Shown one piece after another: positions 1-15,033 of a DNA stretch of 40,277 nt (the first letter of the stretch is position 1; each line of letters begins with the position of its first letter). The notes under the pieces were generated by a model. That model did no database searches. It was given only the letters and a program-made list of their open reading frames with translations, and was not told the origin of the DNA. The translations under genes were made by a program, and so were the position numbers. Origin of the DNA: a virus (taxonomy: Duplodnaviria > Heunggongvirae > Uroviricota > Caudoviricetes); IMG/VR virus record IMGVR_UViG_2563366843_000005; one strand, given 5' to 3'.

Positions 1-1143
1 CTATGCTGTTTTGATATCTACGATAATCCAGTCTTTACCACGATCATCATTGTATCGGTCGGTCATTTTTCTGGATTTATGGCCTAACAACTTTTGCGTA
101 TCCAGACCCTGTTCCCGATATAACCGTTCTGACAGAGATCGCTGCTCATGAAATGTGGGCGCAGTTCCTTGCTCCCATTTTATGCCACATTTTTCCCTGG
201 CCTTTTTAAAAGCCGTTGTCAGAGTATTTGCAGAAACCTGGTCCCCTCTGTTTGCTTGAGAGGTTGTGTGACGGTAATGGACCAGATATTTACTAACAAC
301 AGCATCCCTGCACTGAGATATAACTTCACGAAGGGTAATATTCAGAGCATCGCATTTCAGGTTAAGCGGAATAGCAAGTTTTGAACCGGTTTTTTCCTGA
401 GTAATGTGCAACATGTCGTCCCAGATATCAGAGAATTTCAAATTGCAGATATCGCCTAAACGTTGTCCAGTGACAAGAGCAAGTAGCATCCCGCATTTTA
501 AATAGGGCTGCCGTCTGCTTACGCTGTCAAATATTGCCTGCCATTCGGGCAGTGATAATCTTTGGCGGTTTACTCGATTTCGCGGTTGTTTTGTTGCCTG
601 CGCTGGGTTAAATCCTGGCGGAACATGTCCTGCGTGTTGTGCTTCTTTGAAGACGTCGATCAACACCATTCTCACGACTTGCGCCATCCTGTTATGACCT
701 TCAGCCTTTACAGCATCAATTATTTCGGCAATATCAAGTGCGGTAATATCCTTGAGGTGTTGCATTCCACAATGCTCACGGAAAAGACGAATGGGTTTGC
801 CTTTTTGCCGATAGGAGTTGGGTCTTAGTTCATTATGTTGCAGCCTGTCCTCCTGGATAGAAATATATTTATCAAGCCATTCTGTCACCGTAATGTCTGA
901 GCGCCTGCCTTTCATTCTTTCTAGACGCTCATTGACGCTTAATATTTGTCGAGTACGTTGTTCAGCAATAATGGTATTTGCTTCAGTAGCAACTTGTTTT
1001 GCTTCATTCTCATCAGTTCCTAAGCTATGAAAACGACCGGATAGTGGATGTTTGTATTGCCAATATACCTTTCCGGTTCGCTTATCTAATTTGCAATATA
1101 AATTGGGTATAGAGATTTTGTGAGATCGGGGTCTAGCAGCCAT
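1..1143 (-). CDS. int: phage integrase, tyrosine recombinase (lambda Int family)
   Basis: 380-aa ORF with C-terminal catalytic region motifs (HEQRSLSERLY, LLGHKS, RY); 5' end overlaps xis as in lambda; stop codon at 1-3, so attL is outside the window. Confidence 0.9.
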   Translation of the reverse strand: MAARPRSHKISIPNLYCKLDKRTGKVYWQYKHPLSGRFHSLGTDENEAKQVATEANTIIAEQRTRQILSVNERLERMKGRRSDITVTEWLDKYISIQEDRLQHNELRPNSYRQKGKPIRLFREHCGMQHLKDITALDIAEIIDAVKAEGHNRMAQVVRMVLIDVFKEAQHAGHVPPGFNPAQATKQPRNRVNRQRLSLPEWQAIFDSVSRRQPYLKCGMLLALVTGQRLGDICNLKFSDIWDDMLHITQEKTGSKLAIPLNLKCDALNITLREVISQCRDAVVSKYLVHYRHTTSQANRGDQVSANTLTTAFKKAREKCGIKWEQGTAPTFHEQRSLSERLYREQGLDTQKLLGHKSRKMTDRYNDDRGKDWIIVDIKTA

Positions 1144-1369
1144 CAGCGATTATCCGTTGGAGTTTTGGGTTTGCGTTTATTGGGAGTTGCGGTTCTGCAA
1201 GCGTTCCTACAAAACGGGAATTTCGGTCAATCATCCAGTAGCGACCAACTTTTATAGCGGGTGGGGCCATCATTTTCCCTTGCGCGTATTTTTTCAGAAC
1301 TCGCTCACTTGGTGCTAAGTCCCCAAATTCTTCTTTAGCCCAGTCCTGTAAAGTGATTAGTCGAGACAT
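1133..1369 (-). CDS. xis: excisionase
   Basis: 78-aa ORF immediately upstream of and overlapping int; small basic protein typical of lambdoid Xis. Confidence 0.7.
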   Translation of the reverse strand: MSRLITLQDWAKEEFGDLAPSERVLKKYAQGKMMAPPAIKVGRYWMIDRNSRFVGTLAEPQLPINANPKLQRIIADGC

Positions 1370-7634: not shown

Positions 7635-8174
7635 ATGCAACCACTTACATACCAACAGACTAGCGGATTTAGCCCGACTGCGGTGATAAATCGTTCTCAA
7701 ATAAAACAGGTGCCAGGCCACGAAAAAATTCGTGATGCCGTCCGCGCCTGGTCTGCTGAAGATAATCAGGATGTAGTTGCCGCACTCATTGTGAATGAGT
7801 ATCGAGCACAGGGCGGCGGCACCATCGATTTTCCTGATGATGTCAGTCGTGCACGCCAGAAGCTGTTCCGCTTCCTCGATAACAAATTCGATTCTGAAAA
7901 ATACCGAAATAACGTGCGTGAACTGACCCCGGCAATTCTGGCGGTATTACCGCTGGAATATCGCGGCCACCTGGTTGAGCAGGATAGCTTCATGGCTCGG
8001 CTGGCTGAAATGGAAAAGGAACTCAGTGAGGCAAAGCAGGCGGTCATTCTCAACGCACCACGCCACCAGAAACTGAAGGAGATGAGTGAAGGCATTGTGT
8101 CGATGTTTCGAGTGGACCCGGATCTGGCTGGTCCATTGATGGCGATGGTCACCACCATGCTGGGGGCAATATGA
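7635..8174 (+). CDS. hypothetical early regulatory protein in the cII position
   Basis: 179-aa ORF between cro and O; much larger than lambda CII with no recalled similarity to it. Confidence 0.4.
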   Translation: MQPLTYQQTSGFSPTAVINRSQIKQVPGHEKIRDAVRAWSAEDNQDVVAALIVNEYRAQGGGTIDFPDDVSRARQKLFRFLDNKFDSEKYRNNVRELTPAILAVLPLEYRGHLVEQDSFMARLAEMEKELSEAKQAVILNAPRHQKLKEMSEGIVSMFRVDPDLAGPLMAMVTTMLGAI

Positions 8175-8260
8175 CAGGTTCAAAAATGGCGAAAGTCGGT
8201 CTGCGGGAACAGAACCGACTTTCAGGTGCAAATCGTAACACACTCATTGCGGGAGGAATT

Positions 8261-9190
8261 ATGGCAAACACTGCTGAGATATTCAATTTTCCAGTGCCGG
8301 ATGCGGCACAAAAGGAGCCGCGCGTGGCAGATCTCGATGATGGTTATACGCGCATTGCAAATGAGTTGCTGGAAGCTGTAATGCTGGCCGGATTAACACA
8401 GCACCAGCTTCTGGTCTTCCTGGCTGTCATGCGCAAAACATATGGCTTTAATAAAAAACTGGATTGGGTGAGCAACGAGCAACTTTCCGAGTTGACCGGG
8501 ATATTGCCGCACAAATGTTCTGCTGCAAAAAGTGTTCTGGTAAAGCGTGGGATTCTTATTCAGAGCGGGCGGAATACCGGCATTAATAATGTGGTCAGTG
8601 AATGGTCAACATTACCCGAATCAGGTAAGAAAAATAAAGTTTACCTGAAAGAGGTAAATTTACCTGAATCAGGTAAAAAAAGTTTACCCAAATCAGGTAA
8701 AGACGTTTACCCGAATCAGGTAAACACAAAAGACAAACTAACAAAAGACAATATAAAACCTTTTTCGTCCGAGAATTCTGGCGAATCCTCTGACCAGCCA
8801 GAAAACGACCTTCCTGTGGAGAAACCAGATGCTGCAATTCAGAGCGGCAGCAGGTGGGGGACAGCAGAAGACCTGACCGCCGCAGAGTGGATGTTTGACA
8901 TGGTGAAGACCATCGCGCCATCAGCCAGAAAACCGAATTTTGCAGGGTGGGCTAACGATATCCGCCTGATGCGTGAACGTGACGGACGTAACCACCGCGA
9001 CATGTGCGTGCTGTTCCGCTGGGCATGCCAGGACAACTTCTGGTCCGGTAACGTGCTAAGTCCGGCCAAACTCCGCGACAAGTGGACCCAACTCGAAATC
9101 AACCGTAACAAGCAACAGGCAGGCGTGACAGCTAGCAAACCAAAACTCGACCTGACAAACACAGACTGGATTTACGGGGTGGATCTATGA
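8261..9190 (+). CDS. O: replication initiator protein O
   Basis: N-terminus aligns with lambda O (VADLDDGY..., LRKTYG...); ori iterons inside the gene; start set at ATG 8261 after GGAGG. Confidence 0.85.
   Translation: MANTAEIFNFPVPDAAQKEPRVADLDDGYTRIANELLEAVMLAGLTQHQLLVFLAVMRKTYGFNKKLDWVSNEQLSELTGILPHKCSAAKSVLVKRGILIQSGRNTGINNVVSEWSTLPESGKKNKVYLKEVNLPESGKKSLPKSGKDVYPNQVNTKDKLTKDNIKPFSSENSGESSDQPENDLPVEKPDAAIQSGSRWGTAEDLTAAEWMFDMVKTIAPSARKPNFAGWANDIRLMRERDGRNHRDMCVLFRWACQDNFWSGNVLSPAKLRDKWTQLEINRNKQQAGVTASKPKLDLTNTDWIYGVDL
8611..8766. repeat. origin of replication: four direct iterons (TACC[C/T][G/A]AATCAGGTAA) plus a degenerate copy, followed by an AT-rich segment
   Basis: Iterons at 8613, 8661, 8685 and 8708, degenerate copy near 8641; AT-rich 8725-8766; lies inside O as in ori-lambda. 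Confidence 0.8.
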
Positions 9191-9888
9191 AAAACATCGC
9201 CGCACAGATGACTAACTTTGACCGTGAGCAGATGCGTCGGATCGCCAACAACATGCCGGAACAGTACGACGAAAAGCCTCAGGTACAGCAGGTAGCGCAG
9301 ATCATCAATGGTGTGTTCAGCCAGTTACTGGCAACTTTCCCGGCGAGCCTGGCTAACCGTGACCAGAATGAACTGAACGAAATCCGCCGCCAGTGGGTTC
9401 TGGCTTTCCGGGAAAACGGGATCACCACAATGGAACAGGTTAACGCTGGAATGCGCGTAGCCCGTCGGCAGAATCGACCATTTCTGCCATCACCCGGGCA
9501 GTTTGTTGCATGGTGCCGGGAAGAAGCATCCGTTATCGCCGGACTGCCAAACGTCAGCGAGCTGGTTGATATGGTTTACGAGTATTGCCGGAAGCGAGGC
9601 CTGTATCCGGATGCGGAGTCTTATCCGTGGAAATCAAACGCGCACTACTGGCTGGTTACCAACCTGTATCAGAACATGCGGGCCAATGCGCTTACTGATG
9701 CGGAATTACGCCGTAAGGCCGCAGATGAGCTTGTCCATATGACTGCGAGAATTAACCGTGGTGAGGCGATCCCTGAACCAGTAAAACAACTTCCTGTTAT
9801 GGGCGGTAGACCTCTAAATCGTGCACAGGCTCTGGCGAAGATCGCAGAAATTAAAGCTAAGTTCGGACTGAAAGGAGCAAGTGTATGA
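9187..9888 (+). CDS. P: replication protein P (DnaB helicase loader)
   Basis: 233 aa, matches lambda P over its full length. Confidence 0.95.
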   Translation: MKNIAAQMTNFDREQMRRIANNMPEQYDEKPQVQQVAQIINGVFSQLLATFPASLANRDQNELNEIRRQWVLAFRENGITTMEQVNAGMRVARRQNRPFLPSPGQFVAWCREEASVIAGLPNVSELVDMVYEYCRKRGLYPDAESYPWKSNAHYWLVTNLYQNMRANALTDAELRRKAADELVHMTARINRGEAIPEPVKQLPVMGGRPLNRAQALAKIAEIKAKFGLKGASV

Positions 9889-10187
9889 CGGGCAAAGAGG
9901 CAATTATTCATTACCTGGGGACGCATAAGAGCTTCTGTGCACAGGACGTTGCCGCGGTAACAGGCGCAACCGTAACCAGCATAAATCAGGCTGCGGCTAA
10001 AATGGCGCGGGCAGGAATCCTGGTCGTTGATGGTAAGGTCTGGCGAACGGTGTATTACCGGTTCGCTACCAGAGAAGAACGGGAAGGAAAGGTGAGCACG
10101 AATCTGATTTTTAAGGAGTGTCGCCAGAGTGCCGCGATGAAACGCTTATTGAGGGTATATAAAAGAACATCAATGGGTACACAATGA
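9885..10187 (+). CDS. ren: Ren (Rex exclusion escape) protein
   Basis: MTGKEAIIHYLGTH... matches lambda Ren; C-terminus diverges at the junction with the emrE island. Confidence 0.8.
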   Translation: MTGKEAIIHYLGTHKSFCAQDVAAVTGATVTSINQAAAKMARAGILVVDGKVWRTVYYRFATREEREGKVSTNLIFKECRQSAAMKRLLRVYKRTSMGTQ

Positions 10188-10254
10188 TGAAACAGGTGAG
10201 TTGATTTCAAACTGTAGTACAATTCTCTCCAGTTTGAACAGGAAAGAATATGCT

Positions 10255-10587
10255 ATGAACCCTTATATTTATCTTGGTGGTGCAATACTTGCAGAGGTCA
10301 TTGGTACAACCTTAATGAAGTTTTCAGAAGGTTTTACACGGTTATGGCCATCTGTTGGTACAATTATTTGTTATTGTGCATCATTCTGGTTATTAGCTCA
10401 GACGCTGGCTTATATTCCTACAGGGATTGCTTATGCTATCTGGTCAGGAGTCGGTATTGTCCTGATTAGCTTACTGTCATGGGGATTTTTCGGCCAACGG
10501 CTGGACCTGCCAGCCATTATAGGCATGATGTTGATTTGTGCCGGTGTGTTGGTTATTAATTTATTGTCACGAAGCACACCACATTAA
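10255..10587 (+). CDS. emrE: small multidrug resistance (SMR) efflux transporter EmrE
   Basis: 110 aa from MNPYIYLGGAILAEVIGTTLMKFSEGF..., matching E. coli EmrE (a DLP12 prophage gene in K-12). Confidence 0.9.
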   Translation: MNPYIYLGGAILAEVIGTTLMKFSEGFTRLWPSVGTIICYCASFWLLAQTLAYIPTGIAYAIWSGVGIVLISLLSWGFFGQRLDLPAIIGMMLICAGVLVINLLSRSTPH

Positions 10588-10618
10588 AAATAATTTGTTT
10601 CTAAACGACTAAAATATG

Positions 10619-10650
10619 GAGGCTCTTATATTTATATGAGCCTCGTTTTA
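10619..10650 (+). terminator. putative intrinsic terminator after emrE
   Basis: Stem GAGGCTC/GAGCCTC with AT-rich 12-nt loop followed by a weak T-run. Confidence 0.45.
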
Positions 10651-10843
10651 TGCTTTTTGTTAATGTCTTTATTTTTTTATGTATTCTTTTGTGCTTTCAA
10701 GATTATGGCGTAAGAAAATTGCAATACGATTATTGTTGTATATTCAAGATAATGTGACCTTAATTGTCTTTTTAAATAAAAATTAAACAAAAATTATATC
10801 TCACCACTAAGGTTTATAAAAGCATACGTTAGCAGGTGTCACC

Positions 10844-12370
10844 ATGAAAAAAGCCATAGCATATATGCGATTTTCATCACCAGGTCAGATGTCTGGCGAC
10901 TCATTAAACCGACAGAGAAGACTTATTGCTGAATGGTTAAAGGTAAATAGTGATTATTATCTTGATACCATAACATATGAAGATTTAGGATTAAGTGCAT
11001 TCAAAGGAAAGCATGCACAATCAGGAGCTTTTTCGGAATTTTTAGATGCTATAGAGCATGGTTATATATTGCCAGGAACTACATTGTTAGTTGAAAGTCT
11101 GGACAGACTTTCAAGAGAAAAAGTCGGTGAAGCGATTGAGCGTCTGAAATTGATTTTGAATCACGGTATTGATGTTATAACTCTTTGCGATAATACAGTC
11201 TATAATATTGACTCTTTGAATGATCCATATTCATTAATAAAAGCCATACTTATAGCACAAAGGGCAAATGAAGAAAGCGAGATAAAGTCAAGTCGGGTTA
11301 AATTATCATGGAAGAAAAAACGGCAGGATGCACTGGAGTCAGGCACGATTATGACGGCGTCTTGTCCGAGATGGCTCTCCTTAGATGACAAAAGAACGGC
11401 TTTTGTTCCAGACCCCGACAGGGTGAAAACTATTGAGCTAATTTTTAAACTCAGGATGGAAAGGCGCTCATTGAATGCAATAGCCAAGTATTTAAATGAT
11501 CATGCTGTAAAGAATTTCTCAGGAAAAGAAAGTGCATGGGGACCTTCTGTAATTGAAAAATTATTAGCGAATAAAGCTCTGATAGGTATATGCGTACCTT
11601 CATATCGTGCAAGAGGTAAAGGAATAAGTGAAATCGCTGGCTATTATCCCAGAGTCATATCAGATGATTTGTTTTACGCTGTGCAGGAAATTCGGTTGGC
11701 ACCTTTTGGTATTAGCAATAGTAGCAAAAATCCTATGTTGATAAATCTACTTCGAACAGTTATGAAGTGCGAGGCTTGTGGTAATACCATGATTGTTCAT
11801 GCGGTATCTGGAAGTTTGCATGGCTATTATGTTTGTCCGATGAGAAGACTGCATCGATGTGACAGGCCATCAATAAAGAGAGATTTGGTTGATTATAATA
11901 TCATTAATGAGTTGCTTTTTAATTGTAGTAAAATCCAACCAGTTGAAAACAAGAAAGATGCTAATGAAACTTTAGAGTTGAAAATTATTGAGCTCCAGAT
12001 GAAAATTAATAATTTAATTGCTGCATTATCTGTTGCGCCTGAAGTTACCGCTATAGCAGAAAAAATCAGAGTATTAGATAAGGAATTACGAAGGGCTTCT
12101 GTATCATTAAAAACTTTGAAGAGTAAAGCGGTGAGCTCACTTGGTGATTTTCATGCTATTGACTTAACCAGTAAAAATGGACGAGAGTTATGCCGTACAC
12201 TTGCCTATAAAACATTCGAAAAAATCATAATTAATACGGATAATAAAACCTGTGATATCTATTTTATGAATGGCATTGTTTTTAAACACTATCCTTTAAT
12301 GAAAGTAATATCCGCCCAGCAGGCGATAAGTGCTCTCAAATATATGGTTGATGGTGAGATTTATTTCTAA
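10844..12370 (+). CDS. ybcK: large serine recombinase (resolvase/invertase family), YbcK-like
   Basis: 508 aa, low-GC; N-terminal resolvase-type domain (AYMRFSSPGQ, catalytic Ser context) plus large recombinase domain with Cys-rich zinc-ribbon region. Confidence 0.85.
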   Translation: MKKAIAYMRFSSPGQMSGDSLNRQRRLIAEWLKVNSDYYLDTITYEDLGLSAFKGKHAQSGAFSEFLDAIEHGYILPGTTLLVESLDRLSREKVGEAIERLKLILNHGIDVITLCDNTVYNIDSLNDPYSLIKAILIAQRANEESEIKSSRVKLSWKKKRQDALESGTIMTASCPRWLSLDDKRTAFVPDPDRVKTIELIFKLRMERRSLNAIAKYLNDHAVKNFSGKESAWGPSVIEKLLANKALIGICVPSYRARGKGISEIAGYYPRVISDDLFYAVQEIRLAPFGISNSSKNPMLINLLRTVMKCEACGNTMIVHAVSGSLHGYYVCPMRRLHRCDRPSIKRDLVDYNIINELLFNCSKIQPVENKKDANETLELKIIELQMKINNLIAALSVAPEVTAIAEKIRVLDKELRRASVSLKTLKSKAVSSLGDFHAIDLTSKNGRELCRTLAYKTFEKIIINTDNKTCDIYFMNGIVFKHYPLMKVISAQQAISALKYMVDGEIYF

Positions 12371-12834
12371 ATAATGATCTCGGATTTTAAGTTATGCTAT
12401 GGTGATAAAGTGCAAGACAGAATTAATTATCTTTGACGAAACTTAATGGGTAATTACTTTGTTTGCTCCCACAAGCGAGTTTTGTACGGCTGTATTGGGG
12501 TAGTAAATGAGCTATACAATCTTAATCATTTGTTAGGTGAGAACTCTTGGTCGCAGATTCAAATACTGAAAATACGTGACAAATTATTATGAGCAAAATG
12601 GTGTATGTCACGTATTTTGAATGATAGGTTAAAAAATAACACCGACTTTCGTAGGTATTACTAATAATAAAGCAGAGTTTTTAGATAGTATCAATGTGCT
12701 TTGTGTATATTGTGGCAAATAATTGGGTTGGGGGTACAATTGTGATTGCTTTTGCATAAAAATTGCGCCTTTATGCATAATGAGATAAAGGAATATCAAA
12801 TAAAATAACGATAGGTCATAACAAAGAGGTTTTT

Positions 12835-13386
12835 ATGAAAACACTTATCGTTTCAACTGTATTGGCATTCATAACATTTTCTGCGCAGGCTGCAGCATTT
12901 CAGGTCACTAGTAATGAAATAAAAACAGGAGAGCAACTTACAACGTCTCATGTCTTTTCTGGATTTGGGTGTGAAGGTGGTAATACATCGCCCTCATTAA
13001 CCTGGTCTGGTGTTCCTGAAGGTACCAAAAGCTTTGCCGTAACTGTATATGATCCAGATGCACTTACAGGCAGTGGTTGGTGGCATTGGACTGTTGTTAA
13101 TATTCCAGCAACAATAACATATTTGCCCGTTGATGCAGGGAGACGTGATGGAACAAAACTGCCGACTGGTGCTGTTCAAGGCCGAAATGATTTTGGCTAT
13201 GCTGGGTTTGGTGGCGCATGTCCTCCTAAAGGAGATAAACCACATCATTACCAGTTTAAAGTATGGGCTCTAAAAACTGAAAAGATTCCTGTAGATTCTA
13301 ACTCCAGCGGAGCGTTAGTTGGTTATATGCTTAATGCTAATAAAATCGCAACCGCTGAGATAACACCAGTTTATGAGATAAAGTAG
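12835..13386 (+). CDS. ybcL: periplasmic PEBP/UPF0098-family protein YbcL
   Basis: 183 aa with N-terminal signal peptide (MKTLIVSTVLAFITFSAQA); recalled match to DLP12 YbcL. Confidence 0.85.
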   Translation: MKTLIVSTVLAFITFSAQAAAFQVTSNEIKTGEQLTTSHVFSGFGCEGGNTSPSLTWSGVPEGTKSFAVTVYDPDALTGSGWWHWTVVNIPATITYLPVDAGRRDGTKLPTGAVQGRNDFGYAGFGGACPPKGDKPHHYQFKVWALKTEKIPVDSNSSGALVGYMLNANKIATAEITPVYEIK

Positions 13387-13395
13387 GGTGAGAGT

Positions 13396-14193
13396 ATGCT
13401 GGCAAGAGGTAAGACTAACTTAAAGATCGAAGAAATACGGATGCATAAACATCATGAGATTCATAGGGTTAAGCCTCTTATGCCAGCTTTGTGTCGTATC
13501 CGTCAGGGAAAGAAAGTTATCAATTGGGAGACGCATACTTTAACTGTTGATAATAATCAAATAATATTATTTCCTTGTGGTTATGAATTTTATATTGAGA
13601 ATTATCCTGAAGCAGGGCTTTATCTTGCAGAAATGCTTTACTTACCCATTGATTTAATTGAGAGTTTCCAAAAACTTTATACGGTAACTGATCAAATACG
13701 TAACAAAACAAGTTTCTTTTTACCTCAGAATCCTGAGTTAATATATTGTTGGGAGCAACTAAAAACATCTGTTTCCCGAGGCTTCTCAACTAAAATTCAG
13801 GAGCACTTAGCAATGGGCGTTCTACTTTCGTTAGGAGTGAATCATGTTAATCATTTACTTTTATCATATAGTAAACAATCATTGATAAGTCGTTGTTATA
13901 ACCTGCTGCTATCCGAACCCGGCACAAAATGGACAGCAAACAAGGTTGCTCGATATCTCTACATTTCTGTTTCTACATTACATCGCCGTCTAGCAAGCGA
14001 GGGGGTAAGTTTCCAAAGTATACTGGACGATGTGAGGTTAAATAATGCGTTGTCTGCTATACAAACGACGGTAAAACCTATAAGCGAGATTGCCAGAGAA
14101 AATGGTTATAAGTGTCCTTCTCGTTTTACTGAAAGATTTCATAATCGTTTTAATATAACACCAAGAGAGATAAGAAAAGCTTCCAGAGAGTAA
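13396..14193 (+). CDS. ybcM: AraC-family transcriptional regulator YbcM
   Basis: 265 aa with C-terminal AraC-type HTH; low-GC. Confidence 0.8.
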
Positions 14194-14309
14194 AAGTGTT
14201 TTAAGAAGGAGCAATTCTATCGATTTTGATTTTGGGAAATCAACACGGCATAATTATGTCACCGGAGCCTGAACAACTCCGGTGACTTCTGCGCTAAACG
14301 GGGACGTTT

Positions 14310-14411
14310 ATGCGCACATACAATCCAAACTCTCTTCTCCCTTCACAGATGCAGAAATGCACCTGCAATTCTTTGCATCTAGCGTTTGACCTCTGCGGAG
14401 GTGAAGCGTGA
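14310..14411 (+). CDS. ylcH: small protein YlcH-like (33 aa)
   Basis: Short [36 protein letters not shown] overlapping the ybcN start; below the ORF-track threshold, translated by hand. Confidence 0.35.
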
Positions 14412-14863
14412 ACCTCTCACAAGACGGCATCAAATTACATCGCGGCAACTTCACCGCTATCGGTCGGCAGATCCAGCCTTATCTGGAGGAGGGCAAATGC
14501 TTTCGCATGGTGCTTAAACCGTGGCGTGAGAAACGCAGTCTTTCCCAGAATGCACTCAGCCACATGTGGTACAGCGAAATCAGTGAATACCTCATCAGCA
14601 GGGGTAAAACGTTCGCCACTCCAGCTTGGGTAAAAGATGCTCTCAAACACACATATCTCGGTTATGAAACCAAAGACCTGGTTGATGTCGTAACCGGTGA
14701 TATCACCACTATCCAGTCGTTACGCCATACCTCCGATCTTGATACCGGAGAGATGTATGTCTTCCTGTGTAAGGTTGAAGCCTGGGCGGTGAATATTGGC
14801 TGCCACCTGACTATTCCGCAGAGCTGCGAGTTCCAGCTGCTCCGCGACAAGCAGGAGGCGTAA
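14408..14863 (+). CDS. ybcN: YbcN-like protein (DLP12 nin-region protein)
   Basis: 151 aa, GTG start preceded by GGAGG; recalled match to E. coli YbcN. Confidence 0.8.
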
Positions 14864-15033
14864 TGGCTACACCGCTTATTCGTGTCATGAACGGACACAT
14901 CTACAGAGTATCAAATCGTCGTAAGCGTAAGCCTGAGCTGAAGCCATCCGAAATACCAACACTGCTCGGATATACCGCTAGCCTGGTTGATAAAAAATGG
15001 TTGCGACTGGCAGCAAGGAGGAATCATGGCTGA
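14863..15033 (+). CDS. ninE: NinE protein
   Basis: 56-aa ORF ([56 protein letters not shown]) translated by hand; TAATG overlap with ybcN. Confidence 0.75.
   Translation: MATPLIRVMNGHIYRVSNRRKRKPELKPSEIPTLLGYTASLVDKKWLRLAARRNHG

What the first reader, a model, noticed from the sequence alone, without database searches (positions are those of the whole stretch)
10844..12370. Large serine recombinase embedded inside a tyrosine-integrase prophage
The prophage already has a lambda-type Int/Xis, so a second site-specific recombinase of the large-serine class is not needed for integration. It may control a DNA inversion switch, resolve multimers or be a remnant of a nested element. Its targets are not evident.
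Basis: inference. Interest (0 to 1): 0.4.

Follow-up and report, generated by a model that had tools for sequence, protein, structure and literature searches.

The report
ybcK: spare serine recombinase in prophage
The gene is ybcK, a long-annotated but never characterised E. coli prophage gene. It encodes an intact large serine recombinase carried as accessory cargo in a lambda-like phage that integrates with its own tyrosine integrase. Its DNA targets remain unknown.

Summary
Window 10844-12370 (+) is a 508-aa ORF with the full large-serine-recombinase (LSR) architecture: resolvase domain, recombinase domain, zinc ribbon and coiled coil. The catalytic residues are intact (R9, S11, D87-R88-x-x-R91). 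The prophage has a lambda-type tyrosine Int and Xis at 1-1369 (-).

The gene is E. coli ybcK (DLP12 type). It is already annotated as a recombinase, and as 'large serine recombinase' in phage Perceval, but no study of its recombinase activity was found.

ybcK is not decaying. dN/dS is 0.05-0.09, 79 of 80 phage-contig copies are intact, and it occurs in 1424 of 5426 complete E. coli genomes, at full length in 1398. It is essentially always linked to emrE.

It lies in a low-GC island between ren and ybcN, a general cargo hot spot. The right joint of that slot is shared by phages without ybcK, so cargo swapping does not need YbcK.

Nothing supports an inversion switch or multimer resolution. There are no flanking inverted repeats, no orientation variants and no att-like symmetry at the borders of the 2,084-bp ybcK indel. 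Relatives (37-61% identity, Enterobacterales only) also occupy accessory slots of prophages and plasmids.

Best reading: a selectively maintained accessory LSR, probably descended from the integrase of a nested element. Its targets are unknown.

The parts
10844..12370 (+). ybcK: 508-aa large serine recombinase. Domains: catalytic domain res 4-161 (10853-11326), recombinase domain res 191-284 (11414-11695), zinc ribbon res 302-357 (11747-11914; Cys 309, 312, 331, 339), predicted coiled coil res 373-428 (11960-12127), C-terminal beta-sheet and helix res 444-508.
10874..10876 (+). Codon of the catalytic serine S11. R9, S11 and Q15 are invariant in the 19-sequence family alignment.
10588..10843 (+). 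AT-rich leader of ybcK (26.6% GC). It starts with the emrE terminator-like hairpin 10619-10644. In K-12 the homologous untranslated region holds a Rho/NusG-dependent terminator that keeps ybcK silent. RefSeq annotates the small ORF ylcJ here.
   Evidence: PMC4150792
10596..12679 (.). 2,084-bp ybcK module. It is present in the phage and absent from the otherwise collinear chromosomal emrE-ybcL-ybcM island next to fliE in about 2,560 E. coli genomes.
10255..10587 (+). emrE (SMR efflux pump), the constant upstream partner of ybcK. The emrE-ybcK junction is found in 1399 genomes, against 1398 with full-length ybcK.
12412..14224 (+). Swappable cargo segment downstream of ybcK. Here it holds segment C (12412-12679), ybcL (12835-13386) and ybcM (13396-14193). 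Other phages carry an esterase, an antirepressor fragment plus assorted ORFs, and so on, giving at least 9 types.
12567..12620 (.). 54-bp span with two 15-nt inverted-repeat arms (one mismatch): TGAAAATACGTGACA, 24-nt spacer, TGTCACGTATTTTGA. It folds as a stable RNA hairpin (z=-3.7) followed by a U-run. It is probably a terminator or operator. It occurs only in the ybcK + ybcL-ybcM arrangement, and no link to YbcK is shown.
14225..14407 (+). Conserved joint upstream of ybcN, starting with the palindrome TTGATTTTGGGAAATCAA. It is the common right border of all cargo types, including phages that lack ybcK.
1..1369 (-). The prophage's own integration module: tyrosine integrase (1-1143) and excisionase (1133-1369).

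Best explanation
Shown: the ORF is ybcK, a catalytically intact large serine recombinase. It belongs to a distinct family found only in Enterobacterales. It is not the integrase of this prophage, which has a lambda-type tyrosine Int/Xis at its left end. It is not an invertase of a nearby segment.

Shown: it is a passenger in a low-GC accessory island (emrE-ybcK-ybcL-ybcM, 34-42% GC against about 50% in the backbone). The island sits in the ren-to-ybcN slot of the nin region, a general hot spot where lambdoid phages exchange cargo.

Inferred: the gene most likely descends from the integrase of a small element that landed there. The supporting facts are the 2,084-bp ybcK indel and the gene-sized units of relatives found in accessory slots of unrelated prophages and plasmids.

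Inferred from the domains and conserved residues: it still works by the standard serine-integrase mechanism. Ser11 attacks the DNA, both strands are cut with a 2-bp stagger, subunits rotate, and the coiled coil controls direction. The roughly 40-50-bp sites it acts on have not been identified.

From the literature: in the lysogen it is kept silent by Rho-dependent termination in its AT-rich leader and by Hfq/polyP binding.

Inferred: it lies on the + strand between pR (O, P) and Q, so N-antiterminated early transcription during lytic growth should read through it and express it. Purifying selection shows that the protein still matters to the phage or the host.
For: Identity and architecture.

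Same gene as K-12 ybcK (97.4% nt) and annotated as such. Perceval annotation 'Large serine recombinase'.

Own Tyr Int/Xis. Other ybcK phages also carry a Tyr Int (PhiR68_2; phage 4A7 with Int and Xis next to an icd fragment).

Selection and integrity: dN/dS 0.05-0.09. 79 of 80 viral-contig copies are intact with unchanged catalytic motifs. 1398 of 1424 genomes carry a full-length copy. The gene is present in isolated phages.

Low GC.

Indel 10596-12679 against the chromosomal emrE-ybcL-ybcM island.

The hot spot is independent of ybcK: the same right joint, 14224/14225, occurs in PhiR26_1 (PD-lambda-1), PhiR30_1 (acyltransferase) and an O55:H7 prophage.

Relatives in accessory slots:
- nin-like region with a Tyr Int visible (Pantoea L010), and L018/L103;
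- last gene after the tail-fibre genes (L004, L006, L008, L020, L105, L106);
- next to a partial tRNA-Leu or ssrA fragment, the mark of tyrosine-integrase attachment;
- plasmid or ICE-like contexts (L011, L110, L114).

The unit shared between different contexts is gene-sized.

Silencing: PMC4150792, PMC10954037.
Against: No att-like sites were found. The borders of the 2,084-bp indel show no attL/attR symmetry (22 of 50 positions; 27% of random junction pairs do as well).

Flanking DNA is not conserved among family members.

In about 1,400 E. coli genomes ybcK never occurs away from emrE. So there is no sign of recent independent movement, which a live nested element should show.

Strong purifying selection without mobility argues for a function that serves the phage or host rather than a selfish element.

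For the relatives at prophage ends I could not see the far end of the prophage. They may be the sole integrases of those phages.

Expression from pR is inferred. The conserved joint upstream of ybcN is annotated in phage 82 with promoter signals (X92588), so Q might not depend on read-through.
Confidence: 0.6

Rival explanations
1. YbcK is an accessory recombinase that benefits the phage and is made early in lytic growth or infection. It might provide a second integration route when the primary attB is occupied or absent. It might instead act on competing phage or host DNA, as exclusion or defence by recombination.
For: The gene sits in the nin-type early region in three diverged lambdoid lineages: E. 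coli; L018/L103 at about 60% identity; Pantoea L010 at 42%. Purifying selection is strong and the gene is retained in active phages. In other phages the same slot holds defence genes (PD-lambda-1 in PhiR26_1; a SIR2 gene near the LSR in L018). Small serine recombinases of cryptic prophages have recently been tied to phage defence (PMC12529663).
Against: There is no PADLOC hit. No candidate attP/attB was found. No prophage is seen integrated through a site beside ybcK. Half of the relatives are not in early regions but behind the tail genes.
Confidence: 0.22
2. YbcK is a live transposase-like integrase of a minimal mobile element (about 2 kb, or emrE-ybcK) that targets phage genomes, comparable to TnpX/TndX elements.
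For: There is a clean 2,084-bp presence/absence polymorphism. Gene-sized units are shared between unrelated contexts: L004 with L018, L020 with L105/L106, L019 with L107, and L108 with L118. The GC content is low.
Against: In E. coli there is one single location in about 1,400 genomes. The indel borders show no att symmetry. Breakpoints of the downstream cargo types are heterogeneous (283, 331, 407-427 and 486 nt after the stop), as expected from illegitimate rather than site-specific recombination. The 229-bp repeat flanking the LSR in L018 is explained by an ordinary mosaic join, because DinI-DUF1367-NinG is a common backbone order.
Confidence: 0.1
3. YbcK runs a DNA inversion switch or resolves phage or prophage multimers. 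These are the first reader's other two suggestions.
For: Only the general fact that serine recombinases include invertases and resolvases. A 54-bp inverted repeat lies at 12567-12620.
Against: No inverted repeat pair brackets any segment within 5 kb, nor in five homologous loci. All 80 phage contigs have the same orientation of every block. The palindrome is absent from most ybcK phages and looks like a terminator hairpin. The architecture is that of integrases, not of the roughly 190-aa invertases or resolvases. Related phages already carry a separate Pin-type invertase.
Confidence: 0.04
4. ybcK is a functionless relic that simply has not decayed yet.
For: No att sites and no rearrangements were seen. 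The gene is transcriptionally silenced in K-12 (PMC4150792, PMC10954037).
Against: dN/dS is 0.05-0.09 at dS up to 0.19. 79 of 80 copies are intact, with 33 distinct protein variants that all keep the catalytic residues. The gene is intact even in the heavily decayed DLP12 of K-12. Deletion and over-expression change sabinene tolerance in BL21 (PMC7181518).
Confidence: 0.04

Closest known systems
E. coli K-12 YbcK (b0544, UniProt P77698), DLP12 prophage 'recombinase family protein'
   Same: It is the same gene: 97.4% nucleotide identity, 508 aa, and the same neighbours emrE, ybcL, ybcM and ybcN.
   Different: Here it sits in a complete lambda-like prophage rather than the decayed DLP12. K-12 studies give only its silencing by Rho and Hfq/polyP and a solvent-tolerance phenotype. 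None addresses recombination.
Phage large serine integrases (PhiC31 Int, Bxb1 Int, A118/LI Int, SPbeta SprA)
   Same: Full domain set and fold: catalytic domain, long helix E, recombinase domain, zinc ribbon with inserted coiled coil. Foldseek E-values run from 3e-19 to 1e-11. The profile hit to SprA has E=3e-5.
   Different: Identity is only 13-19%. The gene lies 10 kb inside the prophage and not beside an attachment site. The prophage ends at a tyrosine integrase. No attP, attB or directionality factor has been identified.
LSRs of nested or excisable elements (SpoIVCA/CisA of skin, XisF of the fdxN element, TnpX/TndX, CcrAB)
   Same: It is an LSR inside a larger genetic unit and is associated with a discrete indel. 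PSISearch2D paired YbcK with CisA. NCBIfam gives a weak XisF hit at E=1e-12.
   Different: The XisF score is far below the cut-off (47.8 against 375 bits). No interrupted gene is restored by excision. No excision products or alternative insertion sites are seen.
Small serine DNA invertases of prophages (Gin, Cin, Pin; PinQ/PinR)
   Same: Same catalytic domain family. Many relatives of YbcK lie next to tail-fibre genes, as invertases do.
   Different: Invertases are about 190 aa with a C-terminal HTH and act on short inverted repeats bracketing tail-fibre segments. YbcK has the integrase C-terminal domains, and no such repeats exist. PhiR68_2 carries a separate Pin-type gene.

Membership tests
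Large serine recombinase (serine integrase) superfamily | N-terminal resolvase-type catalytic domain with the nucleophilic serine and the conserved Arg/Asp residues | tested here: met
   Pfam Resolvase E=5e-19. R9, S11, Q15 and D87-R88-x-x-R91 are invariant in 19 family members.
Large serine recombinase (serine integrase) superfamily | C-terminal recombinase domain plus zinc-ribbon domain with four Cys | tested here: met
   Pfam Recombinase E=2e-14 and Zn_ribbon_recom E=8e-8. C309, C312, C331 and C339 are invariant.
Large serine recombinase (serine integrase) superfamily | Coiled-coil motif inserted in the zinc-ribbon domain | tested here: met
   The AF2 model has two long helices at 373-397 and 402-428, between the zinc-ribbon strands and a C-terminal sheet. 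This region aligns with the coiled coil of A118 Int and SprA. It is a prediction only.
Large serine recombinase (serine integrase) superfamily | Catalyses conservative recombination between short att sites | not testable with these tools
Functional integrase of the carrier prophage | Gene next to the attachment site at a prophage end, with no other integrase | tested here: not met
   The gene is about 10.8 kb from the left end. A tyrosine Int and Xis occupy the end. The same layout occurs in PhiR68_2 and 4A7.
DNA invertase (Hin/Gin/Pin) | About 190-aa enzyme with an invertible segment bounded by short inverted repeats; both orientations occur in populations | tested here: not met
   The protein is 508 aa with integrase domains. 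There are no bracketing inverted repeats. A single orientation is seen in 80 contigs.
Mobile LSR element (TnpX/CcrAB-like) | Discrete element with defined ends, found at more than one site or as empty and filled sites | tested here: inconclusive
   Filled and empty states exist (10596-12679 against the chromosomal island). However, the empty version is about 10% diverged, the borders lack att symmetry, and only one location is seen in about 1,400 genomes.
Anti-phage defence system component | Match to a known defence protein model | tested here: not met
   No PADLOC hit for YbcK, EmrE, YbcL, YbcM or YbcN.

The most novel reading that the evidence does not exclude
YbcK-type enzymes form a separate class of accessory serine recombinases. 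They ride in the cargo slots of temperate phages that already have a tyrosine integrase, and they act on DNA other than the carrier's own attachment site. Possible actions are inserting gene cassettes into phage genomes, giving the phage a second landing site, or rearranging a competitor's or the host's DNA after induction. The evidence does not exclude this. The family is conserved, intact and under selection. It is confined to accessory slots and has no detectable cognate att next to it.
Probability: 0.15. Interest if true: 0.65.

Novelty: already known. Interest (0 to 1): 0.3.

Why it matters
About a quarter of complete E. coli genomes, including K-12, BL21 and O157:H7, carry this intact recombinase, and nobody knows what DNA it acts on. 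If active, it could rearrange genomes after prophage induction, explain how cargo enters lambdoid phages, or supply a new orthogonal integrase for genome engineering. As it stands the finding adds no new entity. It re-identifies an annotated gene and narrows down what that gene is not: not the phage's integrase, not an invertase, not a pseudogene.

Tried and rejected
1. Inversion switch. I searched 9800-14900 and five homologous loci for bracketing inverted repeats and found none of note. No orientation variants occur in 80 phage contigs.

2. The 54-bp inverted repeat at 12567-12620 as an attP. It is missing from most ybcK phages and from the chromosomal island, and it folds like a terminator.

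3. A duplicated emrE 3' end flanking the ybcK module. The similarity is not above shuffled controls (119 of 500 shuffles reach the score).

4. attL versus reverse-complemented attR symmetry at the indel borders. The match is 22 of 50 positions, and 27% of random junction pairs do as well.

5. A conserved non-coding motif up- or downstream of family members. None was found.

6. YbcK-driven cassette exchange downstream of the gene. The right joint is shared with ybcK-less phages, and the left breakpoints are heterogeneous.

7. The 229-bp direct repeat of the DUF1367 gene start around the LSR in L018 as a target duplication. It is better explained by an ordinary mosaic join, since DinI-DUF1367-NinG is a common backbone order.

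8. Defence-system membership. There is no PADLOC hit.

9. A small downstream ORF as a directionality factor. The 107-aa ORF after ybcK in most phages is a fragment of an antirepressor (P22AR_C). It is truncated in some types and absent from this window.

10. Sequence search of the PDB with the single protein gave only a weak A118 hit. The profile and fold searches were needed.

11. Literature searches for ybcK, and for serine recombinase combined with DLP12, lambdoid or emrE, found no study of its recombination function.
Full report
**1. The observation**

Window 10844-12370 (+) is an uninterrupted ATG-to-stop ORF of 508 aa.
- Pfam finds the three domains that define a large serine recombinase (LSR), all well above the curated cut-offs: Resolvase (res 4-161, E=5e-19), Recombinase (191-284, E=2e-14) and Zn_ribbon_recom (302-357, E=8e-8).
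- PHROGs places the protein in phrog_95 'integrase' (E=2e-120).
- An AlphaFold2 model built on a 19-member family alignment has mean pLDDT 78.9. It shows an alpha/beta catalytic domain, a long helix E (128-166), a helical recombinase domain, zinc-ribbon strands, two long helices (373-397 and 402-428) and a closing beta-sheet.
- By Foldseek, the best matches of the model are full-length serine integrases: SPbeta SprA (9dxd, E=3e-19), PhiC31 Int, Bxb1 Int and A118 Int.
- The catalytic serine is present. It is S11 (codon 10874-10876, read directly), in the motif Y7-M-R9-F-S11-S.
- R9, S11, Q15, the block E84-S-L-D87-R88-L-S-R91-E, the block Q139-R-A-x-E-E-S-E146 and the four zinc-ribbon cysteines (309, 312, 331, 339) are all invariant across relatives of 41-61% identity.
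- A profile comparison aligns LVESLDRLSRE with LVKKLDRLGRD of gamma-delta resolvase, that is D67, R68 and R71.

**2. The host element**

The window is a lambda-like prophage.
- ORF 1-1143 (-) has the lambda Arm-DNA-binding domain and the Phage_integrase catalytic domain. ORF 1133-1369 (-) is an excisionase.
- O (8171-9190), P (9187-9888) and ren (9885-10187) precede the region. ybcN/NinB (14408-14863), RusA and Q follow it.
- The 5.1-kb stretch 9800-14900 is 99% identical to the sequenced phages PhiR68_2, PhiR70_1 and PhiR34_1. PhiR68_2 has the same gene order, with a tyrosine integrase at its end and, in addition, a Pin-type small serine invertase near the tail-fibre genes.
- 'LSR inside a tyrosine-integrase prophage' is therefore correct.

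**3. What the gene is**

It is ybcK.
- RefSeq annotates the matching E. coli genes as 'ybcK: recombinase family protein', flanked by emrE, ybcL, ybcM and ybcN. K-12 copies are 97.4% identical.
- Phage Perceval's record already calls it 'Large serine recombinase, DLP12 prophage site-specific YbcK recombinase homolog'.
- The literature held here contains no study of its recombination activity.
- What exists is the following. There is a domain-level prediction pairing it with B. subtilis CisA (PMC6637259). A Rho/NusG-dependent terminator lies in its untranslated leader and keeps it silent in K-12 (PMC4150792). Hfq/polyphosphate binds the ybcK DNA (PMC10954037). In BL21(DE3), over-expression raises and deletion lowers sabinene tolerance, with no mechanism given (PMC7181518).

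**4. It is maintained, not decaying**

- Between the window copy and those of Perceval, Turner and PhiR68_2, dS reaches 0.19 while dN stays at or below 0.010. dN/dS is 0.05-0.09.
- Of 80 IMG/VR phage contigs with the gene, 79 have the intact 508-aa ORF. They encode 33 distinct protein variants, none altered at R9, S11 or DRLSR.
- The gene is in 1424 of 5426 complete E. coli genomes, and at 80% of its length or more in 1398.
- Twelve GenBank phage records carry it.

**5. Anatomy of the surroundings**

GC content falls from about 50% (O-P-ren) to 41% (emrE), 27% (leader), 36% (ybcK), 32% (spacer), 42% (ybcL) and 36% (ybcM). It returns to 50% from ybcN onward. Three comparisons define the blocks.

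(a) Phages Perceval and Turner match the window over 9800-12411 and 14225-14900. The stretch 12412-14224 (ybcL-ybcM here) is replaced by an esterase gene or by small ORFs.

(b) About 2,560 E. coli genomes carry a chromosomal island next to fliE, consisting of emrE-ybcL-ybcM, in some genomes followed by a porin gene. It matches 10178-10595 and 12680-14410 at about 90% identity. ybcK with its leader and 309 bp of downstream DNA (10596-12679, 2,084 bp) is therefore a clean presence/absence difference. The part 12412-12679 occurs only together with ybcK (674 genomes).

(c) Phages with neither emrE nor ybcK break at ren (10144-10159) and at exactly the same right joint, 14224/14225. Examples are PhiR26_1 with the PD-lambda-1 defence gene and Rha, PhiR30_1 with an acyltransferase and a lipoprotein, and an O55:H7 prophage with small ORFs. 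The joint begins with a conserved palindrome, TTGATTTTGGGAAATCAA.

The ren-to-ybcN interval is thus a general cargo hot spot of these phages, and its turnover does not require YbcK. Among the 80 phage contigs there are at least nine cargo types downstream of ybcK. Most share the first 283, 331, 407-427 or 486 nt after the stop codon and then diverge at those different points. That shared stretch holds a 107-aa ORF that is a fragment of an antirepressor (P22AR_C). Heterogeneous breakpoints are the mark of illegitimate and homologous mosaic recombination, not of one site-specific crossover.

**6. Tests of the proposed roles**

Inversion switch:
- No inverted-repeat pair brackets a segment in 9800-14900 or in five homologous loci.
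- All blocks have one orientation in all 80 contigs. The row samples listed from the E. coli genome searches show no orientation variants either.

The inverted repeat at 12567-12620:
- It has 15-nt arms with one mismatch and a 24-nt spacer (54 bp in all). It is the only conspicuous inverted repeat nearby.
- It is absent from most ybcK phages.
- It folds as a stable hairpin followed by a U-run (z=-3.7), like a terminator.

Nested element:
- The indel exists, but its borders show no attL/attR-type symmetry. The match is 22 of 50 positions, and 27% of random junction pairs in the same island do as well.
- A suspected duplication of the emrE 3' end is not above shuffled controls.
- ybcK is essentially never found away from emrE. 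The emrE-ybcK junction is in 1399 genomes and full-length ybcK in 1398.
- There is therefore no sign of recent independent movement in E. coli.

Defence: there is no PADLOC hit for YbcK or its neighbours.

**7. Relatives elsewhere**

The search of 5.8 billion proteins and a scan of one genome per species show a compact family of 505-522-aa proteins at 37-61% identity. All are from Enterobacterales: Atlantibacter, Yersinia, Erwinia, Pantoea, Kluyvera, Ewingella, Citrobacter, Lonsdalea and Pluralibacter. The next LSRs are at about 30-35% identity.

Early, nin-like regions of lambdoid prophages:
- Pantoea dispersa L010 has a tyrosine integrase visible 8 kb upstream, then CI/Cro, replication genes, the LSR, KilA-N and Q.
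- Logan contig L018 and Atlantibacter L103 run O, P, several further ORFs (including a SIR2-domain gene in L018), LSR, DinI, DUF1367, NinG and Q.

Last gene behind the tail-fibre or tail-fibre-assembly genes, at the prophage-host border:
- Atlantibacter L004 lies beside ssrA. Yersinia L006, Erwinia L008 (before lepA), and Ewingella L020, L105 and L106 show the same position.
- In Yersinia a 60-nt 3' fragment of tRNA-Leu lies about 170 bp after the LSR.
- In Kluyvera L019 a 28-nt ssrA 3' fragment plus host flank lies about 110 bp after it.
- From general knowledge, such partial tRNA or tmRNA copies are the footprint of tyrosine-integrase attachment. Those elements therefore probably also have their own tyrosine integrase. 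I could not fetch their far ends to confirm this.

Plasmid or ICE-like settings: Citrobacter L011 with MobA and TraD, a Pantoea plasmid and an Enterobacter ludwigii plasmid.

Shared unit: when the same LSR occurs in two different settings, the shared DNA is gene-sized, running from 42-222 bp upstream to 0-400 bp downstream. The pairs are L004 with L018, L020 with L105/L106, L019 with L107, and L108 with L118.

Neighbours: recurrent neighbours are SOS-type cargo genes (umuD/umuC-like and dinI) in L019, L104-L107 and L018/L103.

The L018 repeat: a 229-bp direct repeat covering the first 60 codons of the DUF1367 gene plus about 50 bp upstream flanks the LSR (82% nt identity, 97% aa identity). It looked like a target duplication. 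It is better explained by an ordinary mosaic join, because DinI-DUF1367-NinG is a common backbone order in phages without the LSR.

**8. Interpretation**

Shown:
- The gene is an intact LSR under purifying selection.
- It is not at the prophage end and is not needed for the cargo turnover around it.
- No rearrangement is linked to it in assembled genomes.
- Its relatives likewise occupy accessory slots.

Inferred:
- It acts by the canonical serine-integrase chemistry on unknown sites.
- It most likely descends from the integrase of a small element that entered the hot spot together with, or next to, emrE.
- It is silent in lysogens (literature). It should be transcribed when N-modified polymerase reads from pR toward Q, because every gene from O to Q is on the + strand with ybcK in between.
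- A caveat applies to that last point. The conserved joint upstream of ybcN carries annotated promoter signals in the phage 82 record, so Q may not depend wholly on read-through.

I give 0.6 to this combined reading. Within it, the identity and 'accessory, not the phage's integrase, not an invertase' are near certain, and the nested-element origin is the weak step. The rivals are:
- a phage-beneficial early recombinase, for second-site integration or action on competitor or host DNA (0.22);
- a still-mobile minimal LSR element (0.10);
- an inversion switch or multimer resolution (0.04);
- a dead relic (0.04).

**9. Novelty and score**

The entity is already known and annotated. The analysis adds population and context data and excludes several roles, but it does not reveal the targets. 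A specialist would not be surprised by an orphan LSR in a mosaic prophage. The open question is real but not made directly testable by sequence alone: what does an intact recombinase present in a quarter of E. coli genomes act on? Interest is 0.3.

Noticed in passing
window 10178-10595 and 12680-14410; locus L002 6001-8154; L017 3001-5154: About 2,560 complete E. coli genomes carry emrE-ybcL-ybcM as a chromosomal island next to fliE, in L002 followed by a porin gene. It is about 90% identical to the phage island, lacks ybcK, and extends exactly to the ybcN start. It looks like a stripped lambdoid prophage remnant, so in those strains emrE is not phage-borne.
   Followed up: partly
window 14225-14260: A conserved palindrome, TTGATTTTGGGAAATCAA (TTGAT-N8-ATCAA), marks the exact right border of every cargo type in the ren-ybcN slot. 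In PhiR26_1 a second, 80%-identical copy (L014 2882-3036) separates two cargo modules. It may be a promoter or operator (annotated as such in phage 82, X92588) that doubles as a recombination joint.
   Followed up: partly
window 12567-12620: Inverted repeat with 15-nt arms (one mismatch) and a 24-nt spacer. It folds into a stable RNA hairpin (-18.7 kcal/mol, z=-3.7) followed by UUUU. It is found only in the ybcK + ybcL-ybcM arrangement. Its function is unknown; it may be a terminator or a binding site.
   Followed up: partly
loci L028, L080, L095, L063, L026 and others: 112-435 nt after the ybcK stop; L003 4183-4506: In most ybcK phages the gene is followed by a 107-aa ORF that is only the C-terminal domain of a P22-type antirepressor (P22AR_C, E=1e-15). 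This suggests that ybcK was once joined into an ant-like gene. In Pantoea L010 the LSR is followed by a KilA-N fragment, the N-terminal domain type of such proteins.
   Followed up: partly
loci L019, L104, L105, L106, L107, L018, L103: YbcK relatives are repeatedly adjacent to SOS-type cargo genes (umuD/umuC-like operon, dinI). The gene order looks circularly permuted between loci: umuC lies upstream of the LSR in L019 but downstream in L104, and dinI lies upstream in L019 but directly downstream in L107. This could reflect a small circular element opened at different points, or plain mosaicism.
   Followed up: partly
locus L018 9625-9852 and 12611-12832; 5755-7695: A lambdoid contig carries a truncated copy of the first 60 codons of the DUF1367 (NinB-like) gene upstream of the LSR and a full copy downstream. 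The copies differ almost only at synonymous sites (82% nt, 97% aa). A SIR2-domain gene sits in the same nin region.
   Followed up: yes
locus L013 (PhiR68_2) 44078-44668; beyond the end of the window: The sister phage has three site-specific recombinases of three classes: a tyrosine Int, the LSR YbcK, and a Pin-type small serine invertase next to the tail-fibre genes.
   Followed up: no
loci L020 9945-9962; L105 and L106 at about 9942-9959: A perfect short palindrome, TGTTCA-N5/6-TGAACA, lies 40-55 bp upstream of the Ewingella LSR start codon, exactly where homology between different prophage contexts begins. It is probably an operator. A conserved 67-aa ORF follows these LSRs and ends exactly at the right homology border.
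   Followed up: no
window 10689-10707 and 10736-10754: Two 19-nt direct repeats (TTGTGCTTTCAAGATTATG and TTGTATATTCAAGATAATG, 79% identical, 47 bp apart) lie in the AT-rich ybcK leader. They are possible regulator sites and were not examined further.
   Followed up: no
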